NCBI GenBank assembly: GCA_045863335.1
Contig: BTVY01000011.1
Coordinates: forward strand, 61,627 to 125,626
From: Candidatus Hydrogenedentota bacterium
Lineage (GTDB): Bacteria > Hydrogenedentota > Hydrogenedentia > Hydrogenedentales > SLHB01
Direction: 5' to 3'
DNA: 64,000 nucleotides
Positions 15,094-56,714 of this stretch are shown here, in pieces (positions within the stretch are counted from its first letter, which is position 1; each line of letters begins with the position of its first letter). Both the position numbers and the translations under genes were made by a program. The notes beneath the pieces are model-generated. The model was given only the letters and a program-made list of their open reading frames with translations. It had not been told where the DNA came from and made no database searches.

Positions 15094-15095
15094 CC

Positions 15096-16832: not shown

Positions 16833-16836
16833 CGCG

Positions 16837-41354: not shown

Positions 41355-41449
41355 TCCACCGACCCAGGCTCCGCCGGAGGCTTTGCCGAGGCGAGTTTCA
41401 CCGAGTGTGGGTCACGCGTTGCGTGACGTATTGAGAAACTAGTTGAAGA

Positions 41450-41535
41450 TGGATTCCCGCCTTCGCGGGAATGACGGAGAGGGCAGTAGCCTCGGACATG
41501 GCACTACGCGTCATTCCCGCGAAGGCGGGAATCCA
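41450..41535. repeat. REP/dRS3-like palindromic element pair
   Basis: TGGATTCCCGCCTTCGCGGGAATGACG (41450-41476) and its exact reverse complement (41509-41535); each contains ATTCCC-N8-GGGAAT. Confidence 0.9.
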
Positions 41536-41690
41536 CTGTCTGGTAAGCAACCTGTCTACGATCGTAAACCGTTCGCGCAGGTCTGGCGTGCCGACACTGA
41601 GTGGGCTCTTGGGTCCACGGCAATTGGCACACGTTGTCTCGGCGTAGCCCTCGGCCAAATTTGGGCTGGTGGATAGAGGAGTTTGAATAC

Positions 41691-44600
41691 ATGCGGCATC
41701 GGACAGTTGCAGCGACCCGCTCGGTGTTTGCCGGATTCCTTGCGATCGCGATGATAGCCGGGTTCTCGCCCGCCTCCGCGCAAATAGGCCCGGTCTATAC
41801 AGCGTGTCAAGGCCCCAATTGCCCGGTGGGTTCATTTGATGACCTCCAGGAAGCGATTGATGAGGCGACCGATGCGGGGGCGACCGGTAACCAGGCGCTG
41901 GTTCTGGTGTATGGCGGAACAACGTGGGTCGAGAATCTGATAATCGAGGCGGACGCCAATATCCGTATCCTGGGCGTGCCGCTTGACGCACAGCAGATAA
42001 TCGCGCTGATTGACACAGACGGGGGCGATTTCACGCTAACGTTCCGCGATCCCCTGACGGACACGGACGAGACTACGGCGGCCATTCCTTTCGACGCCAC
42101 GGCCGCGGATGTTCAGGCGGAACTCGAAGCGTTAACCACCATCGATCCAGGCGACGTCATCGTAACCGGGCCAGACGGTGGACCCTACGAAGTCCAATTT
42201 GGAGGAAACTTCGTCGGTGTTCGTATGAACCTGCTCGTCGCGAATAACAATCTGACCAATACCGGTCCGGAAGAACCGTTCATCATCGTGGAATCTCTCG
42301 AAGGACCGCAGAACGTCGTCATCGACGGCAGCGGGTCCGGGATCGTCATCGAGGTGGTGGCGGAACCCGATATGGACGAAGCAGACCGGCTCATCGTCGA
42401 GGGCATTACCATTCAGAATGGATCCGACGGCGTGCAGCTCGTCGATTTGGACGGCGAGGATGTGCCGTTTTCTCCTACATTTAACCGGTGCTATATCCGG
42501 GATAACACCGACAATGGCGTCCGCGTCCAAGGGGACGGTGATCCGCTCTTGGTGAACTGCAGCATCAGTGAAAACGGACAGTCCGGTGTCTTCGTCGGGG
42601 ATGGATCGGGCGTTGGCAGTGGCGCCTTTGCGGACATTCTGCATTGCTCCATCATCGACAACGAAGAGCGGGGCATCTATGTCGAAACTGCCGGGAACAG
42701 CGCCCGTGTCCGAAACACCCTCGTTTTCCGTAACGGTTCCGGTGCGGCCACACAAGGTGGCGTCATCTGGGAAATCAACCCGTTCATAGAGCCAAGCGTG
42801 GGTCCGGTGGAGGGTGGGACCCCCGTCACGATTACGGGTTTAGACTTCGGGGCGGCTCCTGTCGTGTATTTCGGGCCTCCCGACAAGCCGGACACGATAG
42901 CCCTCAACATTACGGTCAATGGCGCGGGAACCCAGATTACCTGCGAAACTCCACCGGCATGGACCGGCGCGCCGGGACCGGTCGATGTATACATCGAACG
43001 TGCCGACGGGTTCGTCATTCGTGTGCCGAACGGCTTTACCTATCAGGCCGCCGCGGCGGTCGATCCGATCCCCATCGTTACGCGCGTCTCGCCGGGCTGG
43101 GGTCCGGTCGACAACGCCAGCACGACGGGTATTGACGAAAGTGCAATCGATGTCTATGTCTATGGGGCAAATTTCGATCCCGACTGTGAGGTTTGGTTCG
43201 ACTTCAATGGGAACGAGGCCATCAACGCCGGGATCGATGGACAGTCGCCTCGGGTGCGGTGGATAAACTCGGGCTTGCTGTTAGCCCGTGTGCCGACGAG
43301 AGCCACCCCGACCACGCCACCGGTGATCGACGTGTTGGTCCGTAATGTGCCTAGCGGCCGAGACAGCCTCGCAGGTCCGCTCAAAGACTACGAATACCGG
43401 AACGTGACTGCGCTCGCGCCGCAGATCGATTCCATCGTCCCAAGCCGGAGCACCGAACTGGACGGCGGCGGCGTTACCGCGGAGATCATCGGCGCGAACT
43501 TCGACCCGGACTGCGTCGTGCTAATCGGCGGCATCCTCTGCACGTATGGCTCGGTGGACGTGAGCGGCCAGGTCATTCGCAGCGTGATCGTCCCCGTTTC
43601 CCAATTTGGCGGTGGAGGCTCCTACGACGTCACCGTAATCAACCCGGATGGTACCTGGGACGTGTTGCCGCGCGGCTTCACGTATTTCCCCACCGGCGAA
43701 CCAGGAACGGACGCCGGTACAGACGTATGGCGCGTCGCCAACTTTGTGGAACGTACCGCAGGCGGAGTCCGGAGTATCTTCGGGCATGGGTTCGACTTCA
43801 ACGTCGATCTCGAAACCGGTGGTACCGCCTTTGCAACCAACGTCCAGCCGATCGCGCAGCGGGAGATACCGTTTACCTATCCCGCAAACACCGACGGCCT
43901 CGGCCTTGCTGCCGGGGTTTCCGCAGTGCCGATTGACGTAATGAATGTGGGGACGCAGCAGGGTGGCCCGTCGACCCAGCCGCTTGCCTCGACGACGCTC
44001 GTCTATGCCGAGCAAAGGGCTATCGCTCCTGGTGCGGGGCAGGCCCTGTATTTCGAGATCGGATCCGTGACCGCCGCGCTGAATCCGGGCAATCCCGACG
44101 ACATCAGCGTGCAGATCTTGAACTACCAGACCGAAATGAGCATCTACGTGGGCGACGTGCTGGTGAATCCGGCGGACTATAGTGCCCCCGCGCCACCCAG
44201 TGCTGCAATTGGGGCTAGCGCGACCGTCACGTTCCCGGCTCCCGCTCAACCCAACGGCGTATGGGGCCCGGTTGATGTGCGGGTGGAGTTGCCCGACACC
44301 AGCGCGCTGAACGGCACGGGTGAACTCTTGTACTACGTGGCGGAAAACGCCTACAGCTACCGGCGTGCCGATCAGGCGCCCGAAGCCTATTCCGTGACGC
44401 CCAATACCGTGCCGGACAATGATGACAATGGTCCGGTATCCGTTCTCATCAGCGGCGCGAATTTCGTTGGGCCGAGCGGTGCGGGCGTGTATACGCGCGT
44501 GTTGCTCGATCCTGATACGACCGATGATAACGGGAACGAGATCGATCTTAGTGCCGTTACCGGTACCTATTCCGTGATTTCGTTCAACAGCATCACTTTC

Positions 44601-47600
44601 GCAATCGATTTGGATACTGTAGACCCGACGTTTCCACGCAATACCCCCGTCGACCTCGTTCTGGAACAGTACGACGCGACGGCTGGGACGGTCTTAGTCT
44701 CGGGCGGGAACCCATTACGTTCGCGGTTGAGTGGCGCGATTCGATTTGAAGATGCGACAGCGCCACCTCAGATCACGTCCGTGGCAAACCAAACCGACCT
44801 TACGGCAACCGGACCGGTCAGCGGTTACGATGCCGTTGGCAATACCGATTTCCTGGTAGATATCACGGGTAGTGGATTCTCAACGGGCGGCGTTGTTGAA
44901 CCGATTGTCCTCTTCGGGACCGCGCAAGCCGAGGTGCAGAGTTTTAGCCCCGGGGCCATCACGGTCGAATTGCCACCGGCGCCGAACGGCTTGCCGGGTA
45001 TCTACGACGTAACCGTGATCCGGCCCGACGACCAGATCAGCGGCAGTCTCGTGGGTGGGTTCACCTACTACATGGACGGCGCGCCGTACATCAACGAGAT
45101 CGTGCCGAATCACATGGCCTCCGACGAGGCTGGACCGTACTTCGTAACCATTCGCGGCTACAATTTTGACGATTTGGTGGACGTTCGCTTCAACGGACCG
45201 TCCGGCGATATCACCATTTCGGATGTGCGAAGCATATCTCCGTACGAGATTGTGGTTGTCGCGCCTGACCCTGCCAGTTTGGCTACGGACCCCGGAGACT
45301 ATCCCACCGGGATTGCAACGGTTCCAGTGACTGTCCAGAACCGTACAGATTTGGATGCGACGCAAGCTGGTTCGCAAGGATTTGTCAGCAACGCCGTTGA
45401 ATTTTACCTACACAACGATCGCGAGAATTTGACCGCAAACATACCCGAGCTGTTGTACAACGACGTGTACGACAACAACCAATTCGACTACCTGAACGTG
45501 TCGCCCGGCACCGGAAGCATTTCGATCGATCCCGCTCTGCTGCCTGACGCGCCTTGGTTGGGCAAATTGATTGTGGATACCGACGATGCGCCCTTGCTGA
45601 ATACAGCGGGACCGTTCACGGTGGATCCCCACACCATCACGGATTTTGAGGGCGATGTTCGTCCGACAGGTGATGGCGCGGAGATCGGGGCCGATGAAAT
45701 ACGGGACCTGTTGGACGGCGACAGCATTGATCAGGCGGTCTGGATTTTCGCCCGCCCCACGCCAAATCCGGTGGGAAAGATGGATGCCGATGAGCTGTTG
45801 GTGGAACTCATCTTCACGGCGAATATTGTCACTGACGACACCGAGGTGTTCATTGGCCCGCAAGGCGGTATTCCAGCGGATCCGGCTCACCGAATCCCGC
45901 TCGAATTGTTTGAGCAGATCGGGCGTGGTCACTACCTGTTCCGAAACCCCGAACCTATCGAAACCTTGGTGGTAGATAATACTCCATCGGGATTGGGGCA
46001 AGGCGATATCGTGGCGGACGGTCATGCGGCGATCTATGTTGAGGATTTGGTGAATTTCCCGCCTGGACGGGAAATACTGGGCTACACGGGAGATCCCGTA
46101 ACCTCCTTGGATCATGGCGGCTTTATTCAGTCCCAAGCGATAAACGGGCGGCATTTCCTGATCGACACCGTGCCACCGCGGATTTACGTGGAGATCTACG
46201 AATCCGCCATTGGAGACTACTTGAACGCGTTGGATATTTTTCCAAATCCGCCTCCAGTAAGCCATGATGATGAGATGGTATCTGGGAATGCCAACCCTGC
46301 AAGTCACCCGCCCCCGTCTTTCCCGTTACCCCCGACGGGAGTGACCGTGGAACTTCCGACGACGTGGTCGCCCGCAACGTTGCCGGCCCCGGTCGATTAC
46401 AATGGTGCGTTGACGTTACCTCCGCTGGCGGGTGTTGACGGGACGAAGATTTTCTTCAACAACGGATCGCTGGCCCAGGATTCGGGGGTGAGTCCTGTCG
46501 GTTCGCCGCTCAATTTTGTCGCGGTCGTAACGTTTATAGATAAGCCGCCCACAGAAGGGCTCGATCCGCGTGCGCCTGAAATCAATGGATCGGCAACGGA
46601 TCAGGATTTCTTCTCCCTTAGTCCTAGTACCAACCGGCAAGTGGCAGGCTTCCTTCCTGAAGTCGTGGATGATCCCGTTTCAGACAGCCTTGATACCGGA
46701 GAGGCACGTTGGATACTTGGCGCAGATAGCGTGATTTTTAGCGGAGTGCCGGCGACGGGTAACTTCAGTACATTTGACGCGGGGGTGCCCAACCCCGGGG
46801 TATTCGATCCCAACTTGTACCCGTTCGATTCGGTTCCTGACCCGTCGACTCCTACAAACTCACCGAATCACGGCCTTTCGGCAGCGTGGACAGTTGGGCC
46901 GATTCCCGCGCTTACGATTCCGCTTGATCATATTCATGGCGAAGGTGTCATGGTTGCCACAGATTTGGCGGGGAACTCCACCGAAGACATAACCGCTTTC
47001 CTGACGGATCCGCTACATGTCTGGTGGATCATTGACGTACACAGCGAGATTTTCCCAGACCTTCCAGACGGGTTCGCCACGAAACGGCCTTACTTCACCA
47101 TGGAGCTTGACCGGTCGTTCAATCCGCAGCCCGCGGGTGGGCCACCACCGATCTTCACGTACCGCATCTACGCGTCGCCGGACTTTTGCGGAGACTACGA
47201 AGTACGCAGCCCGTGGCGTCCATGGTCGCCCAACAAGAGCATTGACGACATTCCGAATTACGTCACCGAAGGCGAATGGGTCTTACTCGTAGTGATTGGG
47301 GCTGACGAGGCCGGGAACGTGGAGAAGTGGCCGTTGCCAGGTTCGCCTGTCGACGGGCCGATTGACCTTTGCACGGCGACACCCATACCGGGCGCGAGAA
47401 ACTGGAAACGGTTCCTGTTTACCGGGTTTGACGCCCCGGAAACGGTGATCGATCCCACGTTCTGGCACGATGTTAACGACAACAACAATATTGACAACGA
47501 ACCCAATTTCGGCAGCAGCCGCTTGATCCCGTTGCCGGACGACATCGGCATTCCCGTGCGCGCTGAATTCCTCGTATCGGCCATCCGCCCGCCGGGTCAG

Positions 47601-48026
47601 TCGGCCCCCATTCGGATTCAATGGCAACTGATCGAGGACGGGGTGCTCGCGGACCAGTTCATCGATGCAACAACCACGCCCGGAAGTTTTGATCTGGGCG
47701 TATACACCGCCAATGGTCAGGTTCGGCGAATCACCGCGCCGGTCGACATCGCCACCTTGACGGGCCAACCTGGGTTGGGCGATGTTCCGTTCCGGCAGCG
47801 GCCGATAACGTACGTGTACCGGGCGGCCGCCTACTTCGACGACAATCTCGACACTACACCTGACCCGACGGATAATAACGGCGTGTTTGACCCCAGTGCA
47901 GGCGAAATCATGGACCCGACGCCGGCGAATGTGTATTTCACGGTGGTGCCGACGGGGGTGTCGAATTACATCAAGGCGCCGACGGATGACGATTCGCAGC
48001 CGATCAAGGAGCAGGAGATTCGGTAG
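41691..48026 (+). CDS. Large secreted protein (2111 aa): right-handed beta-helix with about 8 inserted IPT/TIG domains; candidate adhesin
   Basis: GAGGAG RBS; signal peptide ASA|Q; LQEAID, EGITIQNG, NCSISEN, HCSIIDN repeats; IPT motifs (GPVEGGTPVTITG, GANF, GFTY); DFEGDVRP....EIGADE. Confidence 0.8.
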   Translation: MRHRTVAATRSVFAGFLAIAMIAGFSPASAQIGPVYTACQGPNCPVGSFDDLQEAIDEATDAGATGNQALVLVYGGTTWVENLIIEADANIRILGVPLDAQQIIALIDTDGGDFTLTFRDPLTDTDETTAAIPFDATAADVQAELEALTTIDPGDVIVTGPDGGPYEVQFGGNFVGVRMNLLVANNNLTNTGPEEPFIIVESLEGPQNVVIDGSGSGIVIEVVAEPDMDEADRLIVEGITIQNGSDGVQLVDLDGEDVPFSPTFNRCYIRDNTDNGVRVQGDGDPLLVNCSISENGQSGVFVGDGSGVGSGAFADILHCSIIDNEERGIYVETAGNSARVRNTLVFRNGSGAATQGGVIWEINPFIEPSVGPVEGGTPVTITGLDFGAAPVVYFGPPDKPDTIALNITVNGAGTQITCETPPAWTGAPGPVDVYIERADGFVIRVPNGFTYQAAAAVDPIPIVTRVSPGWGPVDNASTTGIDESAIDVYVYGANFDPDCEVWFDFNGNEAINAGIDGQSPRVRWINSGLLLARVPTRATPTTPPVIDVLVRNVPSGRDSLAGPLKDYEYRNVTALAPQIDSIVPSRSTELDGGGVTAEIIGANFDPDCVVLIGGILCTYGSVDVSGQVIRSVIVPVSQFGGGGSYDVTVINPDGTWDVLPRGFTYFPTGEPGTDAGTDVWRVANFVERTAGGVRSIFGHGFDFNVDLETGGTAFATNVQPIAQREIPFTYPANTDGLGLAAGVSAVPIDVMNVGTQQGGPSTQPLASTTLVYAEQRAIAPGAGQALYFEIGSVTAALNPGNPDDISVQILNYQTEMSIYVGDVLVNPADYSAPAPPSAAIGASATVTFPAPAQPNGVWGPVDVRVELPDTSALNGTGELLYYVAENAYSYRRADQAPEAYSVTPNTVPDNDDNGPVSVLISGANFVGPSGAGVYTRVLLDPDTTDDNGNEIDLSAVTGTYSVISFNSITFAIDLDTVDPTFPRNTPVDLVLEQYDATAGTVLVSGGNPLRSRLSGAIRFEDATAPPQITSVANQTDLTATGPVSGYDAVGNTDFLVDITGSGFSTGGVVEPIVLFGTAQAEVQSFSPGAITVELPPAPNGLPGIYDVTVIRPDDQISGSLVGGFTYYMDGAPYINEIVPNHMASDEAGPYFVTIRGYNFDDLVDVRFNGPSGDITISDVRSISPYEIVVVAPDPASLATDPGDYPTGIATVPVTVQNRTDLDATQAGSQGFVSNAVEFYLHNDRENLTANIPELLYNDVYDNNQFDYLNVSPGTGSISIDPALLPDAPWLGKLIVDTDDAPLLNTAGPFTVDPHTITDFEGDVRPTGDGAEIGADEIRDLLDGDSIDQAVWIFARPTPNPVGKMDADELLVELIFTANIVTDDTEVFIGPQGGIPADPAHRIPLELFEQIGRGHYLFRNPEPIETLVVDNTPSGLGQGDIVADGHAAIYVEDLVNFPPGREILGYTGDPVTSLDHGGFIQSQAINGRHFLIDTVPPRIYVEIYESAIGDYLNALDIFPNPPPVSHDDEMVSGNANPASHPPPSFPLPPTGVTVELPTTWSPATLPAPVDYNGALTLPPLAGVDGTKIFFNNGSLAQDSGVSPVGSPLNFVAVVTFIDKPPTEGLDPRAPEINGSATDQDFFSLSPSTNRQVAGFLPEVVDDPVSDSLDTGEARWILGADSVIFSGVPATGNFSTFDAGVPNPGVFDPNLYPFDSVPDPSTPTNSPNHGLSAAWTVGPIPALTIPLDHIHGEGVMVATDLAGNSTEDITAFLTDPLHVWWIIDVHSEIFPDLPDGFATKRPYFTMELDRSFNPQPAGGPPPIFTYRIYASPDFCGDYEVRSPWRPWSPNKSIDDIPNYVTEGEWVLLVVIGADEAGNVEKWPLPGSPVDGPIDLCTATPIPGARNWKRFLFTGFDAPETVIDPTFWHDVNDNNNIDNEPNFGSSRLIPLPDDIGIPVRAEFLVSAIRPPGQSAPIRIQWQLIEDGVLADQFIDATTTPGSFDLGVYTANGQVRRITAPVDIATLTGQPGLGDVPFRQRPITYVYRAAAYFDDNLDTTPDPTDNNGVFDPSAGEIMDPTPANVYFTVVPTGVSNYIKAPTDDDSQPIKEQEIR

Positions 48027-49798: not shown

Positions 49799-52039
49799 AT
49801 GGCAAAAGCGAAACGCTCACGGATGAAACGGCTCGTTCTTGACGTGGGCTCCAGTGCCGTACGTCTATGCGAACTCTCGCATACGAAGACGGGATACCAA
49901 CTCACCAAATATTACCATCGCGAGTTCGGAATCGATCCCTCCATGGACGAAGACGAACAGCGCAAGGTCCGCGCCGAAACCGTGCGCACTCTCCTGAAAG
50001 ACGCCAAGGTCCGGCACAAGAAGACCGTCCTCGGCGTTCCGGGGCAATCGGTGTTCACCCGCACGCGCGCACTCCCGCCGGTCCCTGAATATAAAGTTAC
50101 GCAAATCGTTCGTTACGAGATTCAACAACAGATCCCCTTCTCGCTCGATCAGATCGCGTTTGATTATCAGGTGCTGCAGCGCACCGAGGCCGGCGGCTAC
50201 GACGTGCTCATGGCGGCTATCAAAGTCGATGTCGTCGAAAAACGGCTCGATATCATTCGCGATGTGAAACGCCAGGTCGACACCGTGGACGTGTGCCCGC
50301 TGGCCGCGTACAACTGGCTGAAATACACGGGCGAGTTCGGCGAAGAAGGGGACTGCGTCGCCTTGATCGATTTGGGCGCCGCCACGACCGACATCGTCAT
50401 CGAGCGCGACAACCAGTTCCGGTTCACGCGCAGCCTCAATCTGGGCGGCAACGACGTTTCCTCCGCCATCGCGGCAGAGTTCGGCGTGTCCTTCGCCGAC
50501 GCCGAGAAGATGAAGCGGGAACGCGGGTTCGCGCCTTCGGGCGATCCGCAGCGCGACGGCAAAGGCGGCGAGGTCATCGGGCGTGTGCTGAATCGCCTGG
50601 TCTCCGAAATATCCCGCTCCTTTGCCTACTTCCGGTCCCAGCCAGGGGGCGGCCCCGTATCGCGGATTATCGTTACCGGGGGCGGCGCGTGTCTCCGCAA
50701 CATGATCCCCTTTTTGCAGCGCCAGCTCGGCATTGAGGTGCGCGTCGCGCAGCCGCTGGCGGGTCTGGCGATTACCCCGGGGGCGCAGGAAGTAAACGAG
50801 CATCCCGAACAGGCAGCGGTAGCGTTGGGCCTCGCCCTTCGATGCTGCGAACGCGTCGCCATCGGCGTGAACCTGATCCCGCCGCGAATCCTGGAAGCGG
50901 CGCGACGCAAGGAACAAGCGGTCTACTGGGCGTTGTCACTACTCACGCTCGGGCTCATCGTGCTGTCCATCGTCCCCTCGATGGCGCAGCGGAACAACAT
51001 GATACTCGAGCAGATCGAGCTCGAGAAGACAGCCATCAGCCGCTACGACCCGCGAATTGTCAATCCGAACACCCCACCGCAATCCTGGAAGTCGCCGCAT
51101 GAAACGGAACTAAGCGACGTCAAAGCCGAGATTGCGCGGTATAAGGACATCGTAACGAAGCTCGATGGCGCGTATACCGCGTTCAAACCTTGGCTTGACT
51201 ACCTGAATACCGTCAACGATTCCCGTCCCCCCGGTAAACTCGTGCTGTTGTGGTCCGTGGAAAGCACGTGGCTCGAAGGCGCGGCGGCGCCCGCCGCGAG
51301 TTCCTCTTCCCGGCCAAGCAGTCGAAGTGAAGGCCGACGGAGTCGCAGCCGCGGCGGTGACGACGATGAAGACGATTCCGCTGCCTCCACCGCAGGTAGC
51401 TCGGGTGTTATTCAAGCCCCTCCACTGAAATACTCGAGTACGGGATTTCGGGGCATCATCTCCAACGACGCTGTCAATGCTACCGTGGGTAGAGGGCGGC
51501 GCGGCGGCGACACTCAATCGGAAGCTCAAGGACCCAGCGAGAATCCAGGCCGGTATAACGGCTTGACAATCCAGGGATATGCCGACAGCGTCGAGACCAT
51601 CCAGCAATACGTCGAGAATCTCCGGGAATCCAACGACTTTCTGGAAGGCAAAGGTGTGTTTTGGGACGACCGATTTACCGATCCCGTACCTCCGACCGTC
51701 CTGGACAATGCCGGGCAAGTGACTTCTTCGCCAAGCCAGATGGGAGGCGGCGGATTTCGGGATAGCGGTGGTGATGACGATGAGGGCCGGCGGGGCCGGG
51801 GCCGGGGTGGCGCGATATCCATTGGCCAAAACATCGGTGGTTACGGACGGCCCGGGGGACAGAGCGATGCGAGCCTCTGGATGAACCCATCCGCGTTGTA
51901 TCCGTTCCGCATCGACCTTCAGTTCTCGGGAGAGCCGGCAGATGAGCAGGCTCCCACAGCCGGTTCCGGGGCATCAGCCGCGGCGCGCTTTCAACAGGGC
52001 GGTGGCTTGAGGCCGCTAATCAACAGAGAAGAAGACTAA
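49799..52039 (+). CDS. pilM: PilM-PilN fusion (actin-like domain + TM + periplasmic domain)
   Basis: LDVGSSAVR, IPFSLD, IDLGAATT, GGNDV, IVTGGG, AVALGLALR, immediately followed by the PilN motif VNLIPP (50867), TM and LTIQGYA. Confidence 0.85.
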   Translation: MAKAKRSRMKRLVLDVGSSAVRLCELSHTKTGYQLTKYYHREFGIDPSMDEDEQRKVRAETVRTLLKDAKVRHKKTVLGVPGQSVFTRTRALPPVPEYKVTQIVRYEIQQQIPFSLDQIAFDYQVLQRTEAGGYDVLMAAIKVDVVEKRLDIIRDVKRQVDTVDVCPLAAYNWLKYTGEFGEEGDCVALIDLGAATTDIVIERDNQFRFTRSLNLGGNDVSSAIAAEFGVSFADAEKMKRERGFAPSGDPQRDGKGGEVIGRVLNRLVSEISRSFAYFRSQPGGGPVSRIIVTGGGACLRNMIPFLQRQLGIEVRVAQPLAGLAITPGAQEVNEHPEQAAVALGLALRCCERVAIGVNLIPPRILEAARRKEQAVYWALSLLTLGLIVLSIVPSMAQRNNMILEQIELEKTAISRYDPRIVNPNTPPQSWKSPHETELSDVKAEIARYKDIVTKLDGAYTAFKPWLDYLNTVNDSRPPGKLVLLWSVESTWLEGAAAPAASSSSRPSSRSEGRRSRSRGGDDDEDDSAASTAGSSGVIQAPPLKYSSTGFRGIISNDAVNATVGRGRRGGDTQSEAQGPSENPGRYNGLTIQGYADSVETIQQYVENLRESNDFLEGKGVFWDDRFTDPVPPTVLDNAGQVTSSPSQMGGGGFRDSGGDDDEGRRGRGRGGAISIGQNIGGYGRPGGQSDASLWMNPSALYPFRIDLQFSGEPADEQAPTAGSGASAAARFQQGGGLRPLINREED

Positions 52040-52965
52040 TGAAGAAGCAGCACATCGTTGCGATTGTCGTTCTCTTGGTCGTCGCTGGAGCGCTCGGTGC
52101 CGGTTATCAGTTCTATTTCAAGGAACAGCTCGAGGAATACAGCGAGAACGAGACTTTTCTGACTCAAATTCGCGCCAAACGAGCGGATTTGGACCGTCAG
52201 TTCGACGGCAAGAAGCCGGACGACGTCGTCGCCGCCTATCGTAACCTCGTCAATCCTTGGGCGGATGCGACCGAGACTCGGGCGCGTCCGTTCCGCTTCG
52301 ATGAATATACTTCCGTCGAGCCGATGCCCGAAGGCGAAATCCCAAAGCCTTATTACATTCGGCAAGTTGAATCCATGAAGAATCAACTGCTTCAGGATGC
52401 CTATACCGGCGGTGTTCCGATTCCCGGTGTGGATCCATACTTCGGGCAGTATAACCCGTCCCAGTTGGCCGGTACGACGATTACTGCCGAAGACGCGAAC
52501 AAGTGGCTTAAAGAAGTCCACTTTGGATCTTCCATCGTTCGGAAGCTCATGGCCAACGGCGCTCTGCAGATCAACAACTTTGGATTCTGGTCGCCCCGGG
52601 TGGTCGAAGGTGTGCTGAATGCCCGGACCTTCGGTGTGGACATGTGGATCCGCATGGGTGACTATTGCCGGTTGGTCCAGGAACTGCAATACGACGAGCA
52701 GACGTTTTTCAGTGTCGCGTCATTTCGTATGACCAATCCGTATCTGAAGTACTACGACCCCCCCCTGCGGGTGGAAATGCTTGTCACGATGGCAGAATAC
52801 CTCGCTCCAGACGCGCCTGCCGGAACCGGTAGCGGAAGCGCGGGGACGGACCTGGCCGACACCTCCGCTGGCGGTCAGCAGAGTATCGAGGAGACTCTCA
52901 CGCGAATGGGGCAGAATCGCGAGCCGGCCGGTGGCGGACCCAACGACGAGCCCGCGGTGGAATAG
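52039..52965 (+). CDS. PilO-like alignment subcomplex protein
   Basis: N-terminal TM plus coiled coil; TAATG coupling to pilMN; position. Confidence 0.6.
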   Translation: MKKQHIVAIVVLLVVAGALGAGYQFYFKEQLEEYSENETFLTQIRAKRADLDRQFDGKKPDDVVAAYRNLVNPWADATETRARPFRFDEYTSVEPMPEGEIPKPYYIRQVESMKNQLLQDAYTGGVPIPGVDPYFGQYNPSQLAGTTITAEDANKWLKEVHFGSSIVRKLMANGALQINNFGFWSPRVVEGVLNARTFGVDMWIRMGDYCRLVQELQYDEQTFFSVASFRMTNPYLKYYDPPLRVEMLVTMAEYLAPDAPAGTGSGSAGTDLADTSAGGQQSIEETLTRMGQNREPAGGGPNDEPAVE

Positions 52966-53053
52966 ATGAACCACGTGCCACTAGATCGCAAATCGCGGCG
53001 ACAGCATACACCGCTCGGTAACGACACGAAACGAGCCCAAGGCGTACATATCC

Positions 53054-53572
53054 ATGAATGATTTCTTGACCATACTGCAGAAGACGGGCGCATGGATCTG
53101 GACCCAGAAAGAGAAGATGGTCCTATTAATACTGGTGGTTGTCTTCGGCTTCCGGGTCTATCAGGTGGTTAGTGGACCCCCGCCCGAACCTCCAGAAGGC
53201 CCCACTCGAGTCGCCGCGGAAGAAAACCCCGATATGCCGGGAGCCCGCCCAGTACCCCCGCCCAAGACGGATTTCCAGAGCTTGGTCAATCGGAACCCAT
53301 TTTCCGTGTACGGGGTATCTGCGGCCACCGACGAGGGCCGGGATGGTGAACCGCGAATCGACCTCGTGCTCGTCCGAGTTGTGCCGTGGAACGACGGGAC
53401 CTACCGGGCAGAGATTATTAGCTCGCAGGACAGCCGGCCACGGCGATACGAAGAGAACGAACCTTTCGAGGGGTACCGGGTGGAGAGTATCAACCCCTCA
53501 GCGAATACGGTGACTGTCTATTCCAGCGAGCACGGACGAAGTTTTACGTTGCAGGCTCAGGAAGCGCCTTGA
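53054..53572 (+). CDS. PilP/GspC-HR-like membrane-anchored protein
   Basis: TM, Pro-rich linker, RNPF motif, small beta domain; directly before the secretin. Confidence 0.6.
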   Translation: MNDFLTILQKTGAWIWTQKEKMVLLILVVVFGFRVYQVVSGPPPEPPEGPTRVAAEENPDMPGARPVPPPKTDFQSLVNRNPFSVYGVSAATDEGRDGEPRIDLVLVRVVPWNDGTYRAEIISSQDSRPRRYEENEPFEGYRVESINPSANTVTVYSSEHGRSFTLQAQEAP

Positions 53573-53627
53573 GTGGGGATTGGGAATTGAGTATAGTTGA
53601 CAAAAATTGCGGGAGGAATACACGCTC

Positions 53628-56600
53628 ATGAGTAACTGGTTGCCGCGGTCGACCACCGCACACAGCCTCATTGTTGCCTTGCTGGTCGCGCTACTGGCTC
53701 CGCTGACCCCGGTTGCCGGCGCTCAGGAATCCGGCGCATCCGCGTCGGTCGATGCAGCAAGCACAGCGGGGGAAAGCGCTGCTCCCGAAGGGATCTCGGA
53801 GGCCGACAAGTTCTATCGAGAAGGCCTGTCCCTCTACAGCCGGGACATGTATCGCGAAGCGCTCAATGCGTTCAATCGCGCGCTGGCACTGGATCCCAAT
53901 CACGAAAACGCCCAGAAAATGGTCGTGAAGTGCGAAGGTAAAATCCAGATGGCCGCCGCCGGAGAATCACCAAGTACGGTCGAAAGCTTCAATGTGATCG
54001 ACCCGGAAGCCATCCAGAGCGAAACGGAAGGCGGTGTGCCCGAGACGGCTGAGGATCTCAAGTACACTCGAACGAAAGAGTTGATGTTGGAAGGCCAGTT
54101 CTATCTGGAGAACGGCAAGTACAACAAGGCTCAGGAATACTTCGAGCAGATCCTCCTGATCGATCCCGGTAACAAAACCGCAACGCGTCTGCTCGCGGAA
54201 GCCACAGTGGGCGCGTACAAGGAAGAGATTCGGGACGACTGGCAACAGCTGGAAATTGACCGGCAGCGCATTCGTACCGGAATCGAAAAGAGCAAACTCC
54301 TCCCCGAAGGCGCGGACGACAAAGGCATCAAAGAGCCTCAAATCTCGGTGCCGGTCGAAGAAGAAGAGTACGCGGTCGAACGAGAAAAGACCGACGTCGA
54401 AATGGCTTTGGATTCCCCCGTCTCAATCGAGTTCGACGACGAACACATCACACGCATTACCGAGTTTATCGCCGAATACGTCGGTATCAACATCGTGGTT
54501 GATGCCCGTGTCGTTCTGCCTCCGCGCCAGGCCGCGCCCGCAACGACCGGCGTCCCAGGACAGCCCACGCCGTTCCCCGGCGCACTGCCTCCGGGAGCCG
54601 GCACCGGAGCGCCCGGAGGATTACCCCCCGGCGCTCTTCCCACACCGGGTGCGCCGGGTTTGCAACCGGGTGGCATCGGCACAATCAATCAGGCTCAGGG
54701 GCTTCAAGTTCAGCCGCAGACAACCGCGACTGGAGAGGAAGTCACCGATGGGTACGTTCCCTACATTAAACTGGAAGACGTTCCACTCAGCGATGCACTC
54801 AAGGCGTTGCTGCGACCCTTGAATCTTTCGTACTCCGTACAACCCGGATTTCTGTGGATAAGTACCGCAGAGAAAATCCGCACGGAATCGTTCGAAGAGT
54901 TGGAGACCCGCATTTACGAACTCCGCAACGCGGGCGCCGAGACGCTATTCAAGATCGTAATTCGAAACCCCGGCGGCCAAGGCGCGTCCAATTTCGGTAT
55001 TGGCGGCGGAGGCGGCGGTAACTTTGGCGGAGGCGGCGGCAACTTCGGCGGAGGCAACTTCGGCGGAGGCAACTTCGGCGGAGGCAACTTCGGCGGAGGC
55101 GGCGGCAACTTCGGCGGCGGCAACTTTGGCGGAGGCGGCGGCAACTTCGGCGGAGGCGGCGGCAACTTCGGCGGAGGCGGCAACTTCGGCGGAGGCGGCA
55201 ACTTTGGCGGAGGCGGCAACTTCGGCGGAGGCGGCAACTTCGGCGGAGGCGGCGGAAACTTCGGCGGAGGAGGCGGCGGCTTCGGCGGCGGCGGCGGTGC
55301 CCAATTCTCCAACATATCCGATCTATTCGGCAGCATCAGTGATTTGGCGGTTGGTGAAACTCCCGCAGTGATCGGCCTCAGCACAAGCGGTACCGGTTTG
55401 ACGACCGGGTCGCTCGGCGGTGGTCAGCTCGGCGGTGGCCAGCTCGGCGGTACCGCTGGTGGAAGGCGAGGGGGCGCTGCCGGCACAGGCAGCCAATTCG
55501 GCGGTACGACAGGCGGCGGGTTGCAGTCGGGCCAAGGCGGGTTGCAAGGGACCGAGGGTCTTGGCGGCGCGGCTGGCCTGGGCGGCTTCCAAGGACAGGC
55601 GGAAGTGCTCACAATCCTGGAGAACGCGATTCCACCCGTCATTGAACCGTACACCGGCGAAGTGTTGTCGTGGATGGTCTATAACCCCGCGATCAACCAA
55701 TTGCTCGTGCACTCCACGCCGACCTATCTCGAAACCTTGGAAGAGCTGATTTCCAATCTCGATGTGACGCCCAAACAGGTCAGCATCGAATCGAAGTTCG
55801 TGACTATCAGTGTGACTGACCTCGACAAAATCGGGTTCTCCTGGGACTTGACTTTGAGCGATCAAAACAGCCGGCCGCGTCAAATCGAGGATCTCGCGGA
55901 TGCGACCCGTTCCTACGACGTGGACGGCGATGGCGCCTTGGAAGACATCCCGTTCTACTCGAAGCCGGATGGCTCGCAGGTCATCGACAACACGGTCGTC
56001 TCCAGCATTATCGAGGCGGTAGCCAACCCCGGCCCCGCCGGAACCTCGTCAATTACGGGTACGATTCTCAACAACGCGGACGGCGACACGCTCAGTGTAA
56101 CGATGGATTACCTGAACAGCTTGACCGACACCGAATTGTTGAGCGCCCCGCGGGTGACCACGATGAACCGCAAACCGGCCGTCATCGCGGATATCCTGAC
56201 ACAGACGTTTAACACCCAGGTCATCTCAACGCTGCAAACAAGCGACGCCGGCTTCGGTGGCACACCCACCACCAGCGCGCAACAGCAACTGCTCTTTACG
56301 CAGTTCTTCTTCGGAATCACCCTGTCTGTGACGCCTCAGATCACCGGCGGCAACCAGGTTCGCTTGTGGCTGAACCCGCAGGTAACGACCCAACAGGGTG
56401 AAGACCGGTTCGTGCAGCGCAGCATCATCGACGGCGACACGCTCGAAGCCGAGATCGCATTCCCGCGCACCTCGGTGCAGTCGATCTGGACCAACGTCAT
56501 CGTACGTGACGGCGATACCTTGGTGCTTGGCGGTCTCATCACTGACCGGACGACCAAGGGACAAGAACGCGTACCGTATCTCTCTGAGATTCCGGTGCTC

Positions 56601-56714
56601 GGGTTCTTCTTCCGAGGCAAGTCAACGCAGATCGAGCAGTCAAGCCTGCTTATCTTCGTGACCGTCGACATCATCGATCCGACGGGAGCGCGCTTCTTCG
56701 AAGCCGCGGCCTAA
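53628..56714 (+). CDS. pilQ: Pilus secretin with TPR repeats and Gly-rich inserts (1028 aa)
   Basis: GGAGG RBS; signal peptide; TPRs (ALALDPNH, ILLIDPGN); QVSIESKFV, LLSAPRVTT, GITLSVTPQI, VPYLSEIPVLGFFF, LLIFVT. Confidence 0.85.
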   Translation: MSNWLPRSTTAHSLIVALLVALLAPLTPVAGAQESGASASVDAASTAGESAAPEGISEADKFYREGLSLYSRDMYREALNAFNRALALDPNHENAQKMVVKCEGKIQMAAAGESPSTVESFNVIDPEAIQSETEGGVPETAEDLKYTRTKELMLEGQFYLENGKYNKAQEYFEQILLIDPGNKTATRLLAEATVGAYKEEIRDDWQQLEIDRQRIRTGIEKSKLLPEGADDKGIKEPQISVPVEEEEYAVEREKTDVEMALDSPVSIEFDDEHITRITEFIAEYVGINIVVDARVVLPPRQAAPATTGVPGQPTPFPGALPPGAGTGAPGGLPPGALPTPGAPGLQPGGIGTINQAQGLQVQPQTTATGEEVTDGYVPYIKLEDVPLSDALKALLRPLNLSYSVQPGFLWISTAEKIRTESFEELETRIYELRNAGAETLFKIVIRNPGGQGASNFGIGGGGGGNFGGGGGNFGGGNFGGGNFGGGNFGGGGGNFGGGNFGGGGGNFGGGGGNFGGGGNFGGGGNFGGGGNFGGGGNFGGGGGNFGGGGGGFGGGGGAQFSNISDLFGSISDLAVGETPAVIGLSTSGTGLTTGSLGGGQLGGGQLGGTAGGRRGGAAGTGSQFGGTTGGGLQSGQGGLQGTEGLGGAAGLGGFQGQAEVLTILENAIPPVIEPYTGEVLSWMVYNPAINQLLVHSTPTYLETLEELISNLDVTPKQVSIESKFVTISVTDLDKIGFSWDLTLSDQNSRPRQIEDLADATRSYDVDGDGALEDIPFYSKPDGSQVIDNTVVSSIIEAVANPGPAGTSSITGTILNNADGDTLSVTMDYLNSLTDTELLSAPRVTTMNRKPAVIADILTQTFNTQVISTLQTSDAGFGGTPTTSAQQQLLFTQFFFGITLSVTPQITGGNQVRLWLNPQVTTQQGEDRFVQRSIIDGDTLEAEIAFPRTSVQSIWTNVIVRDGDTLVLGGLITDRTTKGQERVPYLSEIPVLGFFFRGKSTQIEQSSLLIFVTVDIIDPTGARFFEAAA
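54990..55299 (+). repeat. Coding tandem repeat (GGC GGA GGC [GGC]n AAC TTC) encoding about 15 G3-6NF units
   Basis: Directly visible 15/18/21-bp units within the secretin gene. Confidence 0.95.

What the first reader, a model, noticed from the sequence alone, without database searches (positions are those of the whole stretch)
54970..55600. Secretin with a ~200-aa Gly-rich, FG-repeat insert inside its N3 domain: a nucleoporin-like disordered plug?
Seen: between ETRIYEL and the VYNPAINQLLVHSTP strand lie about 15 G3-6-N-F repeats followed by GGQL/GGRRGG low-complexity sequence. Known: N3 loops of secretins face the channel lumen and some GspD proteins have shorter Ser/Gly loops there; secretins are 12-15-mers. 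Inference: about 200 Phe-Gly motifs would line the vestibule and could form a deformable FG-type barrier that seals the channel yet admits the unusually large tip complex of this locus. The DNA repeat may also vary in copy number. Gly/Phe-rich loops occur in some planctomycete secretin-like proteins, but I know of no functional description.
Basis: partly seen in the sequence, partly recalled or inferred. Interest (0 to 1): 0.75.

Follow-up and report, generated by a model that had tools for sequence, protein, structure and literature searches.

The report
Glycine-rich disordered loop in a pilus secretin
A pilus outer-membrane channel protein of an uncultured sludge bacterium (Hydrogenedentota) carries a real, phylum-wide 200-residue glycine-rich floppy loop with a conserved core, and a separate secreted protein carries a matching copy, so the two probably build a soft plug or collar at the channel.

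Summary
ORF 53607-56714 (+) is a PilQ-type secretin fused to TPR repeats. Residues 463-663 form a 201-aa insert that is 53% Gly, with 14 G3-6-N-F units.

- **Not an artefact.** All 86 orthologs examined have 71-232 aa at this site. The nearest outgroup secretins have 34-40 aa.
- **Different organism.** It is Hydrogenedentota, not a planctomycete.
- **Phe is not the conserved feature.** The interspersed hydrophobic residue is F, M, Y or L depending on lineage (F dominant in 35 of 86).
The insert is arm-island-arm, with a conserved ~35-aa island (SNISDLF..VGE.PA.IG).
An unlinked secreted small paralog carries the same arm plus island.
- **The two proteins track each other.** Their arm chemistry and island sequence match within a genome (0 of 20000 permutations) without DNA-level copying. 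This argues for selection and shared function.

My best reading (about 0.5) is a cohesive, compliant Gly/hydrophobic mesh at the periplasmic side of the channel. It resembles abductin or Gly-loop elastomers more than FG nucleoporins.

Still open: which N3 loop holds the insert, whether it sits in the lumen, what the island binds, and the exact repeat number. Insert length does not track the size of the giant tip protein.

The parts
53607..56714 (+). PilQ-type secretin gene (1035 aa from TTG; a likelier start is the ATG at 53628, residue 8, followed by a signal-peptide-like hydrophobic stretch)
   Evidence: ORF list and translation. Pfam Secretin 6.4e-35. Best solved relative is V. cholerae PilQ 6w6m, by Foldseek (E 8.9e-21) and by sequence. 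The ESM Atlas holds the sequence from residue 8.
53799..54296 (+). N-terminal TPR region (residues 65-230)
   Evidence: Pfam TPR_1, TPR_2 and TPR_19. AF2 helices at 65-230 with pLDDT above 90.
54393..54884 (+). STN/N0-like domain (residues 263-426), itself split by a disordered Pro/Gly-rich insert at residues 315-374 (nt 54549-54728)
   Evidence: Weak Pfam STN hit at 388-419. AF2 secondary structure and pLDDT.
54903..54968 (+). Strand beta1 of the last N domain (ETRIYEL, residues 433-438) plus the conserved alpha1-like segment AGAETLFKIVIRN (442-454)
   Evidence: AF2 strand E433-438; pLDDT falls below 50 from residue 448. Nearly invariant columns in the 93-sequence alignment. hhalign places it on beta1-alpha1 of the window's own GspD N3 (E 0.082, weak).
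54993..55286 (+). Arm 1 (residues 463-560): 98 aa, (G3-6-N-F) x14 plus G6F, no charged residue, no Pro
   Evidence: DNA tandem array 55007-55297. AF2 pLDDT about 30.
55287..55400 (+). Conserved island (residues 561-598): GGGGAQFSNISDLFGSISDLAVGETPAVIGLSTSGTGL, net charge -3
   Evidence: An island HMM hits 77 of 86 orthologs at domain E<=1e-4. N, I, F, D, V, G and E columns are invariant in 42 islands. In the genome the HMM hits only this ORF and one other.
55401..55595 (+). Arm 2 (residues 599-663): 65 aa, Gly-rich but more polar (GGGQL, GGRRGG, GLGGAAGLGGFQG)
   Evidence: Across orthologs arm 2 is a median 43% Gly and 21% S/T/N/Q.
55596..55760 (+). Rest of the last N (N3-like) domain: helix 666-674, strands 689-693 and 698-703, helix 705-718
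   Evidence: AF2, pLDDT 69-93. Pfam Secretin_N profile positions 36-69 match residues 691-724. hhalign places helix 666-674 on alpha1 of the window's GspD N1/N3 (E 0.004 and 0.001).
55776..56678 (+). Secretin double-barrel domain (residues 724-1024)
   Evidence: Pfam Secretin at 837-1024. AF2 long strands at 724-1023. Foldseek hits to 40 secretin chains at E<=1e-3.
49799..53572 (+). Upstream alignment-complex genes: PilM-PilN fusion (49799-52039), a 308-aa ORF (52039-52965) and a 172-aa ORF (53054-53572). The last two are PilO and PilP by position only.
   Evidence: Pfam PilM_2 5.5e-48 and a weak PilN hit. The two small ORFs have no Pfam hit. The order is kept in 16 genomes.
34770..48026 (+). 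Two giant ORFs (2194 and 2141 aa) upstream in the same locus. The first has a GspK/PilX-like hydrophobic N-terminus.

Best explanation
**What it is.** The insert is a real, selected, lineage-specific module of the type IV pilus secretin of Hydrogenedentota. It splits the last periplasmic N (N3-like) domain and has three parts:
- Arm 1 is an uncharged, proline-free run of G3-6 followed by one hydrophobic or aromatic 'sticker'.
- The island is a conserved acidic stretch of about 35 aa (SNISDLF..I.D..VGE.PA.IG).
- Arm 2 is Gly-rich and more polar.

**The second component.** A secreted small paralog, encoded elsewhere in the genome, carries the same arm plus island at its C-terminus. Its sticker chemistry and island sequence track those of the secretin genome by genome.

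**How it probably works (inferred).** The 12-15 loops of a ring, together with the small protein, would form a cohesive, rubber-like Gly/hydrophobic mesh. The mesh would be held together by like-with-like sticker contacts and by the island. I place it at the periplasmic side of the channel. There it would cork the vestibule when no pilus is present and be pushed aside into a collar when the pilus passes.

**Shown:** anatomy, conservation, disorder prediction, the two-protein co-variation, and the restriction of the island to two architectures.

**Inferred:** luminal root, cohesion, and the plug or collar function.
For: **Identity and context**
- It is a secretin in a PilB/PilT/PilC, pilin and PilMN locus.

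**Conservation of the insert**
- The site holds 71-232 aa in 86 of 86 orthologs, against 34-40 aa in 7 of 7 outgroup secretins.
- 69 of 86 inserts are at least 40% Gly.
- The arm 1 'grammar' is kept while residues change. In 72 orthologs the medians are 72% Gly, 16% FYWLMIV, 0% acidic and 0% Pro, with a sticker spacing of 4.
- Arms turn over fast. GGGGNF here becomes GGQGGGGF in a relative that is 95% identical in its C-terminal part.

**The island**
- It is present in 77 of 86 orthologs.
- In 1.84 billion representative proteins a 35-position island profile finds 157 at E<=1e-3.
- Of the best 150, 130 are small proteins and 119 of those carry the same N-terminal domain. Six are PilQ-type, 12 are fragments and 2 are false hits.
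- In this genome the island HMM hits only the secretin and G000:C49:18061-18990.

**Co-variation of the two proteins**
- The non-Gly composition of the two arms has cosine 0.733 within a genome against 0.347 between genomes, over 15 genomes. No permutation of 20000 reaches this.
- Taking one genome per genus (11 genomes) gives 0.782 against 0.324, again 0 of 20000. The dominant sticker is identical in 13 of 15.
- Island identity is 20.8 of 28 within a genome against 17.1 of 28 between genomes, 0 of 20000.
- This is not DNA copying. The longest shared DNA word is 9-20 nt within a genome, against a cross-genome mean of 13.1 and maximum of 28.
- The same codon is used at identical residues 0.40 of the time within a genome and 0.41 between genomes.
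- One genome (G019) lacks the island in both proteins.

**Location by homology**
- Both possible N3 loop sites project into the channel in solved secretins.
- The InvG loop leaves the lumen when the needle is present.

**Material analogy**
- Abductin, a random-coil compressible rubber, has the consensus GGFGGMGGGX (passages).
- Low-complexity hydrophobic domains with few or no FG motifs also form hydrogels (passages).
Against: - There is no structural or experimental datum on where the loop lies. AF2 gives no confident placement (pLDDT under 50 for residues 448-662), and I had no coordinates.
- Which N3 loop is split remains ambiguous. AF2 and hhalign favour the site before the helix that packs as alpha1. 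The pre-insert segment, however, also looks like a canonical alpha1.
- A 14-mer's inserts total about 237 kDa and 288 nm3 dry. That exceeds the annulus left by a pilus of about 6 nm (about 177 nm3; my estimate). A permanent luminal gasket is therefore impossible, and displacement has to be assumed.
- One lineage (G014) has Ser/Asn-rich arms with 23% Gly and almost no stickers.
- 9 of 86 orthologs lack a clear island.
- The co-variation tests treat related genomes as independent. Ancient gene conversion followed by synonymous saturation cannot be excluded.
- The small paralog with an island was seen in only 24 of 41 relatives, among the loci I fetched.
Confidence: 0.5

Rival explanations
1. Tether and latch. 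The Gly-rich arms are only passive flexible leashes. The working part is the island, a docking peptide. It would clamp neighbouring subunits, bind another machine part or peptidoglycan-associated factor, or recruit or compete with the small paralog. There would be no barrier or gel function.
For: - The island is the only well-conserved sequence in the insert. It is portable: it lies at the C-terminus of 130 of the best 150 profile hits, and four small proteins carry two copies.
- In InvG, parts of the N3 variable loop become ordered and clamp the ring between subunits (passages).
- The island co-varies between the two proteins and is lost from both in G019.
Against: - Passive leashes would not need a conserved sticker density (16% hydrophobic, spacing 4).
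- Nor would they need sticker chemistry matched between two unlinked genes.
- 100-aa arms are far longer than needed to reach anywhere within a ring.
- AF2 docks the island nowhere in cis.
Confidence: 0.25
2. This is an FG-nucleoporin-type selective barrier in which Phe-Gly motifs as such line the vestibule and admit the large tip complex.
For: - This genome's insert has 18 FG dipeptides, which gives about 216-270 per ring of 12-15.
- It is disordered and uncharged.
- FG domains need hydrophobic cohesion and no globular fold (passages).
Against: - F is the dominant sticker in only 35 of 86 orthologs. FG dipeptides number 0-3 in several full-length orthologs.
- The spacers are Gly runs, not variable polar spacers.
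- No transport-receptor analogue is known.
- Insert length is unrelated to the size of the giant ORFs (rho 0.29, p 0.28, n 16).
- The volume argument also applies.
Confidence: 0.1
3. A tolerated, essentially neutral low-complexity expansion. Replication slippage of a GGC-rich repeat occurred in a permissive surface loop, and the result has no function of its own.
For: - The DNA is a tandem array with 80-86% unit identity.
- Unit type and number change between close relatives.
- The window's own GspD has a short G6 run in its N3 loop.
- Assemblies often break here.
Against: - The insert is kept in 86 of 86 orthologs across a phylum, with conserved composition rules.
- It holds a conserved island.
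- Its amino-acid chemistry matches a second, unlinked gene without DNA identity.
- The insert is the most Gly-rich stretch in a genome where only 6 ORFs reach the threshold.
Confidence: 0.07
4. Assembly artefact or a mis-called frame.
For: No contig of four public runs bridges the array. The opposite and shifted frames are also open across it.
Against: - The same frame carries conserved sequence on both sides and the island in the middle.
- More than 100 independent assemblies show the insert.
- The flanks, and all but one of the listed internal k-mer contigs of runs X1 and X2, match the window without a difference.
Confidence: 0.01

Closest known systems
Type IVa pilus secretin PilQ (solved: V. 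cholerae 6w6m, P. aeruginosa 6ve2-4)
   Same: - It has a C-terminal double-barrel secretin domain preceded by an N3-type domain and an N0/STN-like domain.
- It is encoded downstream of pilM/N/O/P-like genes.
- 6w6m is the best fold match (E 8.9e-21) and the best sequence match.
   Different: - It scores 149.9 bits against the TIGR02515 cut-off of 284.35.
- Pfam finds no AMIN domain.
- It has an N-terminal TPR region, a 60-aa Pro/Gly insert in the N0-like domain, and the 201-aa Gly-rich insert in N3.
N3-domain insertions of T3SS secretins InvG/MxiD: the beta-hairpin 'beta-INSERTION' (beta1-alpha1) and the variable loop (alpha1-beta2)
   Same: - The domain is the same, and the insert sits at one of these same two topological sites.
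- Those loops face the channel. The hairpin props the gate. The variable loop accounts for a periplasmic constriction and threads out between N3 and N1 when the needle is present (passages).
   Different: - Those inserts are about 16 and about 28-50 aa, and are partly ordered.
- This one is 201 aa, over half Gly and predicted fully disordered except for a conserved island.
- There is no sequence similarity.
Disordered N3 loop of phage f1 pIV, and the Gly-containing N3 loop of the window's own GspD (12493-15093)
   Same: [quoted passage not shown]
- The GspD in this window has a 35-aa alpha1-beta2 loop with a G6 run.
   Different: Both loops are an order of magnitude shorter, with no sticker pattern, no island and no partner protein.
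FG nucleoporin domains (GLFG/Nup98 type)
   Same: - Both are channel-anchored and intrinsically disordered, with low charge and multivalent hydrophobic or aromatic motifs next to Gly.
- Cohesion through hydrophobic residues is the stated requirement for a hydrogel (passages).
   Different: - Phe is not conserved here.
- The spacers are Gly runs of 3-6, not variable polar spacers.
- Sticker density is far higher.
- There is no receptor system.
- The setting is a bacterial periplasm.
- This is a resemblance in physics, not homology.
Abductin and other Gly-rich elastomers or 'glycine-loop' proteins
   Same: - Abductin is Gly-rich with interspersed F and M, has very low proline, and is a random coil. 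Its consensus is GGFGGMGGGX (passage).
- Several orthologs read almost like that, for example GGFGGQQGGMGGGGFGG.
   Different: - Abductin is a cross-linked extracellular animal material, and no cross-linking residues are evident here.
- The likeness is in composition only.
- The comparison with keratin or loricrin glycine loops is recalled, not checked.

Membership tests
Secretin superfamily (Pfam PF00263) | C-terminal secretin domain scoring above the curated cut-off | tested here: met
   120.7 bits against a cut-off of 27.5, residues 837-1024.
Secretin superfamily (Pfam PF00263) | Double beta-barrel fold with an N3-type ring domain beneath it | tested here: met
   The AF2 model has long beta strands at 724-1023 and a beta-alpha-beta-beta-alpha set at 433-438 and 666-718. 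40 PDB chains match at Foldseek E<=1e-3, all of them secretins.
Type IV pilus secretin PilQ (NCBIfam TIGR02515) | Score above the curated cut-off | tested here: not met
   149.9 bits against 284.35. GspD, MshL and Amuc_1098 models are also far below their cut-offs.
Type IV pilus secretin PilQ (by context) | Encoded with pilM/N/O/P, pilB/T/C and pilins | tested here: met
   A PilM-PilN fusion lies upstream and two small ORFs sit in the PilO and PilP positions. Two PilB-like ATPases, PilT, PilC and three N_methyl pilins are also present. The gene order is kept in 16 genomes.
Type IV pilus secretin PilQ (by context) | AMIN domains at the N-terminus (common in T4aP PilQ; recalled) | tested here: not met
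   Pfam lists no AMIN domain. TPR repeats are found instead.
FG-nucleoporin-type barrier domain | Many FG/FxFG/GLFG motifs in a domain of hundreds of residues | tested here: inconclusive
   There are 18 FG in 201 aa in this genome. F is the dominant sticker in only 35 of 86 orthologs, and some orthologs have 0 FG.
FG-nucleoporin-type barrier domain | Intrinsic disorder, no globular fold | tested here: met
   AF2 pLDDT is under 50 for residues 448-577 and 587-662.
FG-nucleoporin-type barrier domain | Motifs separated by spacers of variable, mostly polar sequence | tested here: not met
   The spacers are Gly runs. Arm 1 has a median of 72% Gly, 7% S/T/N/Q and a sticker spacing of 4. The definition comes from passages.
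FG-nucleoporin-type barrier domain | Cohesion or hydrogel formation, and selective passage of receptors | not testable with these tools
   This needs purified peptide assays.
Secretin N3 variable loop (alpha1-beta2) as in InvG 217-267 | Insertion lies between the first helix and the second strand of N3 | tested here: inconclusive
   The pre-insert segment aligns to beta1-alpha1 of the window's GspD N3 (hhalign E 0.082). The post-insert helix also aligns to alpha1 (E 0.001-0.004). AF2 builds only the post-insert helix with confidence. Pfam on fragments is silent.
T3SS secretin beta-INSERTION (beta1-alpha1) | A beta-hairpin after beta1 that props GATE1 and GATE2 | tested here: not met
   AF2 models no hairpin; the region is a coil with pLDDT about 30. 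Only the topological position may be shared.
Abductin-like Gly-rich elastomer | Gly-rich, low-proline, random-coil repeats with interspersed F/M | tested here: met
   Arm 1 has 0% Pro, 72% Gly and 16% hydrophobic residues. The abductin consensus comes from a passage. This is a likeness in composition, not homology.
Abductin-like Gly-rich elastomer | Covalently cross-linked network with rubber elasticity | not testable with these tools
   No Cys- or Tyr-rich cross-link domain is evident. Testing needs mechanics on purified protein.

The most novel reading that the evidence does not exclude
A bacterial, two-component protein gel inside a secretion channel. It would be made of 12-15 Gly/aromatic loops of a pilus secretin and a secreted paralog carrying the same arm and island. 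These would co-condense by like-with-like sticker contacts into a cohesive, rubber-like cork. The cork would seal the periplasmic vestibule and be displaced reversibly each time the pilus, with its giant tip proteins, passes. In physics this is a prokaryotic counterpart of the nuclear-pore selective phase, and it would have evolved independently.
Probability: 0.2. Interest if true: 0.9.

Novelty: new variant of a known kind. Interest (0 to 1): 0.7.

Why it matters
Secretins are thought to seal with a folded gate. Their N3 loops are short and are mostly ignored because they are disordered in maps. Here a whole phylum keeps about 200 residues per subunit of sticker-and-spacer sequence at that place. 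It also keeps a soluble partner protein whose chemistry tracks the loop.

If these form a mesh, it would be the first gel-like or elastomeric sealing element described in a bacterial envelope machine. It would also be a natural series of F, Y, M and L sticker variants for testing how such materials are tuned.

Even the modest reading is useful. It defines a new portable module (Gly arm plus island) and a new uncharacterised protein family of about 130 clusters at 50% identity. It also shows that a split N domain can carry a very large insert.

Six literature searches found no description of it in their listings.

Tried and rejected
- **Complex prediction.** I gave it the secretin TPR region (residues 60-235), the small paralog's island and the secretin's island as partner. 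The score was 0.00 in both runs, controls were not run, and the tool's verdict was 'no answer'. This is neither for nor against binding.
- **Read-level repeat count.** All four runs are k-mer contigs that stop at about 55049 and resume at about 55224-55267. Only 40-81-nt pieces lie in between and none bridges the array. Two one-contig 'skips' (255 and 136 nt) have sides of 21-23 nt and may come from other organisms. The copy number is therefore unverified.
- **Insert length against giant upstream ORF size.** Spearman 0.29, p 0.28, in 16 non-independent genomes. There is no support for scaling.
- **Gene conversion as the cause of the arm and island matching.** I found no signal.
- **Pfam on fragments 428-459, 422-468 and 660-724, to decide which helix is alpha1.** Only profile positions 36-69 matched.
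- **hhalign against single GspD N domains.** Both candidates align weakly to alpha1.
- **Fold of the small paralog's N-terminal domain.** The best VIA Z is 4.9 and the rest are 4.2 or lower. The matches are small Sm/SH3-like barrels, below the level the tool calls meaningful.
- **Pfam on the small paralogs.** Only STN appears, in 8 of 11.
- **Neighbours of the small paralog.** These are an aldo/keto reductase and a MoxR ATPase, with no pilus genes.
- **ESM Atlas.** It shows only that TPR-secretin fusions exist in Verrucomicrobiota and Acidobacteriota clusters.
- **Literature.** Searches listed no paper on Gly-rich inserts in secretins or on Hydrogenedentota pili. I saw listings only for those. 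I read passages of 10.1101/2021.07.20.453082, PMC6155069, PMC7058355, PMC7545093, PMC13052691 and PMC3553378.
- **Supplements.** The supplementary figures of the InvG and MxiD papers show the N3 loop topology.
- **Recalled, not checked.** The pilus diameter of about 6 nm; the partial specific volume of 0.73 ml/g used; LARKS and glycine-loop comparisons; AMIN domains in PilQ.
- **Signal peptides.** Those of the secretin and of the small paralog are judged by eye.
- **Small paralog count.** '24 of 41 genomes' covers only the loci I fetched. One search's '41 of 41' includes hits on the secretin itself.
- **Rows dropped from the pair analyses.** Arms with fewer than 5 non-Gly residues were left out. 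Pairs without a recognisable motif (G017, G018) were left out.


Full report
**What is there.** The finding lies in ORF 53607-56714 (+), 1035 aa.
- Pfam finds a C-terminal Secretin domain (120.7 bits), N-terminal TPR repeats, a weak STN hit, and only the second half of a Secretin_N domain, at residues 691-724.
- The NCBIfam PilQ, GspD, MshL and Amuc_1098 models all match far below their cut-offs.
- The gene closes a type IV pilus locus. That locus holds two PilB-like ATPases, PilT, PilC, three N-methyl pilins and two giant ORFs. An FGE-sulfatase/PEGA protein, a PilM-PilN fusion and two small ORFs in the PilO and PilP positions follow.
- A separate T2SS-like cluster with its own GspD lies at 12493-18057.
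- Names attached to the closest database relatives place the organism in Candidatus Hydrogenedentota, not Planctomycetes.

**The observation.**
- ETRIYEL is at residues 433-439 and VYNPAINQLLVHSTP starts at 691.
- Residues 463-663 (nt 54993-55595) are 201 aa with 107 Gly, 20 Phe, 15 Asn and 18 FG dipeptides. They hold 14 G3-6-N-F units plus one G6F, followed by GGGQL and GGRRGG sequence.
- The DNA is a tandem array of period 18/21 with about 15 copies.
- In the 6.75-Mb genome only 6 ORFs reach 45% Gly over 60 aa, and this is the top one. None of the other secretin-domain loci I scanned (6 of the 7 others) has a Gly-rich stretch.
- The description and coordinates are therefore correct.

**It is not an artefact, but the copy number is open.**
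- The ortholog is found in 41 of 41 related genomes.
- All 18 full-length copies read from those genomes have a Gly-rich insert of 84-243 aa at the same site.
- In a 93-sequence alignment, 86 of 86 orthologs have 71-232 aa there (median 177; 69 of 86 are at least 40% Gly). Seven of 7 outgroup secretins (Kiritimatiellia-type) have 34-40 aa.
- Many relatives' genes are cut at contig ends inside the repeat.
- In four public runs the contigs stop at the array, and none bridges it. The number of units in this window is therefore unverified.
- Close relatives differ in unit type and number. GGGGNF here becomes GGQGGGGF in a protein 95% identical over the C-terminal part.

- The insert is not uniform. 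In nearly all orthologs, a conserved stretch of about 35 aa lies between a first arm (G3-6 plus one hydrophobic residue) and a second, more polar Gly-rich arm. Its consensus is (D)VTxISNISDLFSxIxDxxVGExPAxIGLxxxGTG.
- An HMM of this island hits 77 of 86 orthologs at E<=1e-4.
- Some of the remaining orthologs keep only its second half.
- The hydrophobic 'sticker' of arm 1 varies by lineage: F dominant in 35, M in 24, Y in 16, L in 7, I in 3, V in 1.
- What is conserved is the grammar. Over 72 orthologs the medians are 72% Gly, 16% hydrophobic, no acidic residue, no Pro, and a sticker spacing of 4.

**A second protein with the same module.**
- The island HMM hits exactly two ORFs in this genome. 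One is the secretin. The other is G000:C49:18061-18990 (-), about 272 aa.
- That ORF has a signal-peptide-like start, a small beta-rich N-terminal domain, a Gly/Phe arm and the island at its very C-terminus.
- It lies between efflux-pump and MoxR-ATPase genes, far from pilus genes.
- Relatives have the same small protein, usually with more. Their copies run: signal peptide, N-domain, the second half of an STN domain, a beta1-like LETRxY, TLPKIVVRNPGG, the arm, the island, and then the end. This amounts to a copy of secretin residues about 375-600 on a different N-terminus.
- Pfam sees only STN, in 8 of 11.
- AF2 of one member gives a confident N-domain plus helix (pLDDT about 95), a moderately confident STN half, and disordered arm and island.
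- Fold search gives only weak small-barrel matches (best Z 4.9).
- A 35-position island profile searched against 1.84 billion representative proteins finds 157 at E<=1e-3. Of the best 150, 130 are small proteins, and 119 of those carry the N-domain and 93 the STN half. A further 6 are PilQ-type, 12 are fragments and 2 are false hits. Four small ones carry two islands.
- The island is therefore a portable module confined to these two architectures.

**Co-variation.** Arms and islands of the two proteins match within a genome.
- *Arms.* For 15 genomes with both arms, the cosine between non-Gly compositions is 0.733 within a genome and 0.347 between genomes. None of 20000 re-pairings reaches this.
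- With one genome per genus (11), the values are 0.782 and 0.324, again 0 of 20000.
- The dominant sticker is the same in 13 of 15. Within the window's own genus, two genomes are F in both proteins and three are Y in both.
- *Islands.* Identity is 20.8 of 28 residues within a genome and 17.1 of 28 between genomes, 0 of 20000.
- *Not recent DNA copying.* The longest shared DNA words in the arms are 9-20 nt within a genome, against a cross-genome mean of 13.1 and maximum of 28.
- Identical island residues use the same codon 40% of the time within genomes and 41% between them.
- In G019 both proteins lack the island.
- *Caveats.* Related genomes are not independent, and old conversion events cannot be excluded.

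**Where the insert sits.**
- AF2 on 93 sequences (mean pLDDT 67) gives strand 433-438. Residues 448-577 and 587-662 then fall below pLDDT 50, with only the short stretch between (part of the island) just above it. After that come helix 666-674, strands 689-693 and 698-703, helix 705-718, and the barrel.
- On that model the insert lies between beta1 and the helix that packs as alpha1.
- The pre-insert segment YELRNAGAETLFKIV, however, looks like the canonical beta1-turn-alpha1 of the window's own GspD N domains.
- hhalign aligns both the pre-insert segment (E 0.082) and the post-insert helix (E 0.001-0.004) to alpha1.
- Pfam on fragments does not decide.
- I had no coordinates, so the site stays ambiguous. 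It is either the beta1-alpha1 site, where InvG/MxiD carry the beta-hairpin that props the gate, or the alpha1-beta2 variable loop.
- For both sites, the passages I read place the loops in the channel. The hairpin supports the gate. The variable loop accounts for a periplasmic constriction and threads out between N3 and N1 once the needle is present. pIV has a disordered N3 loop pointing to the pore centre.
- A luminal root is therefore an inference from homology, not a result.

**Physical limits.**
- One insert is 17.0 kDa. Fourteen make 237 kDa, or about 288 nm3 dry.
- That is more than the roughly 177 nm3 annulus left around a 6-nm pilus in a chamber 9 nm wide and 5 nm tall. These dimensions are recalled or taken from pIV and VcPilQ passages.
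- A permanent luminal gasket is therefore excluded. The loops must leave the lumen when the pilus is out, as the InvG loop does, or they sit mainly below or around the ring.

- The order giant ORF, giant ORF, FGE/PEGA, PilMN, PilO, PilP, PilQ is kept in most of 16 genomes.
- Insert length does not follow the largest upstream ORF (rho 0.29, p 0.28).
- The shortest insert among the genomic orthologs (84 aa, G033) goes with ORFs of 2779 and 1722 aa.

**Interpretation.**
- The conserved composition rules, the fast residue turnover, the island, and the matching with an unlinked secreted paralog all argue for function, and for joint function of the two proteins.
- The arm is uncharged and proline-free, with a hydrophobic residue every 4-7 positions. 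It is closer to abductin (GGFGGMGGGX, random-coil rubber) than to FG domains, whose motifs are separated by variable spacers.
- The same paper notes that hydrophobic low-complexity domains with few or no FG motifs gel as well.
- I therefore favour (0.5) a cohesive, compliant mesh made by the ring's loops and the small protein at the periplasmic side of the channel. It would be displaced by the pilus.
- A pure tether-and-latch role for the island comes second (0.25).
- The Phe-Gly-specific nucleoporin model is a narrow sub-case that the ortholog data weaken (0.1).
- Neutral expansion (0.07) and artefact (0.01) are unlikely.

**Limits.**
- The complex prediction gave no verdict and is not used as evidence.
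- No RNA data were examined.
- Signal peptides, the Ca-site-like motif and the SLT-like fusion were judged by eye.

Noticed in passing
G000:C49:18061-18990 (-) = L039:8062-8877 (-), outside the window: A secreted small paralog (about 272 aa) has a beta-rich N-domain, a Gly/Phe arm and the same island at its C-terminus. It belongs to a family of about 130 clusters at 50% identity with no Pfam family beyond a partial STN.
   Followed up: yes
window 54549-54728 (secretin residues 315-374): A second disordered insert, Pro/Gly-rich, splits the STN/N0-like domain of the same secretin (AF2 pLDDT under 50). Both periplasmic domains of this secretin are therefore split by long flexible loops.
   Followed up: partly
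window 55908-55976 (secretin residues about 768-790): An Asp/Gly-rich stretch, YDVDGDGALEDIPFYSKPDGS, lies inside the secretin domain. D771, D775 and G776 are nearly invariant in the family alignment. It looks like a calcium site by eye.
   Followed up: no
window 12493-15093: A separate GspD-type secretin (N0 plus three Secretin_N domains) has a 35-aa N3 loop containing a G6 run. GspE and GspF follow at 15096-18057.
   Followed up: partly
window 34770-41354 and 41601-48026: Two giant ORFs (2194 and 2141 aa) lie in the pilus locus. The first has a GspK/PilX-like hydrophobic N-terminus and a lamin-tail-like hit. The second has beta-helix and TIG domains. Most of 16 relatives have giant ORFs in the same position.
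   Followed up: partly
window 48171-49571: A protein with three PEGA domains and an FGE-sulfatase domain sits between the giant ORFs and pilMN. An ORF of similar size (about 460-550 aa) holds this position in most of 16 relatives, but I checked its domains only in this window.
   Followed up: no
window 49799-52039: The PilM-PilN fusion (746 aa) has long Ser/Arg/Asp/Gly low-complexity stretches in its periplasmic part, including 'GGGGFRDSGGDDDEGRRGRGRGG'.
   Followed up: no
G000:C16:70349-72769 (+): An 807-aa ORF has a Gly/Leu-rich stretch (LGGGLGGGLGGGGSLLGSLGGYGGGGGLFGGGGG) ahead of a long helical part. It was not annotated here. It shows that Gly-rich stretches in this genome do not all use the same sticker.
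   Followed up: no
L096 (G022:C10), 469-aa ORF: The N-terminal domain of the small paralog also occurs fused to a C-terminal part that, by eye, looks like a lytic transglycosylase (ESNFN...GLMQLMP). This hints that the domain targets proteins to the cell wall or to the pilus machine.
   Followed up: no
P0124-P0127: Four small-family members carry two islands separated by a second Gly-rich arm. This mirrors the arm-island-arm layout of the secretin.
   Followed up: partly
L094 (G014) and L095/L063 (G019): There are two exceptions. The G014 secretin has Ser/Asn-rich arms (23% Gly), and no small paralog with an island was seen there. G019 has Met/Gly arms, and the island is absent from both the secretin and the small paralog.
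   Followed up: partly
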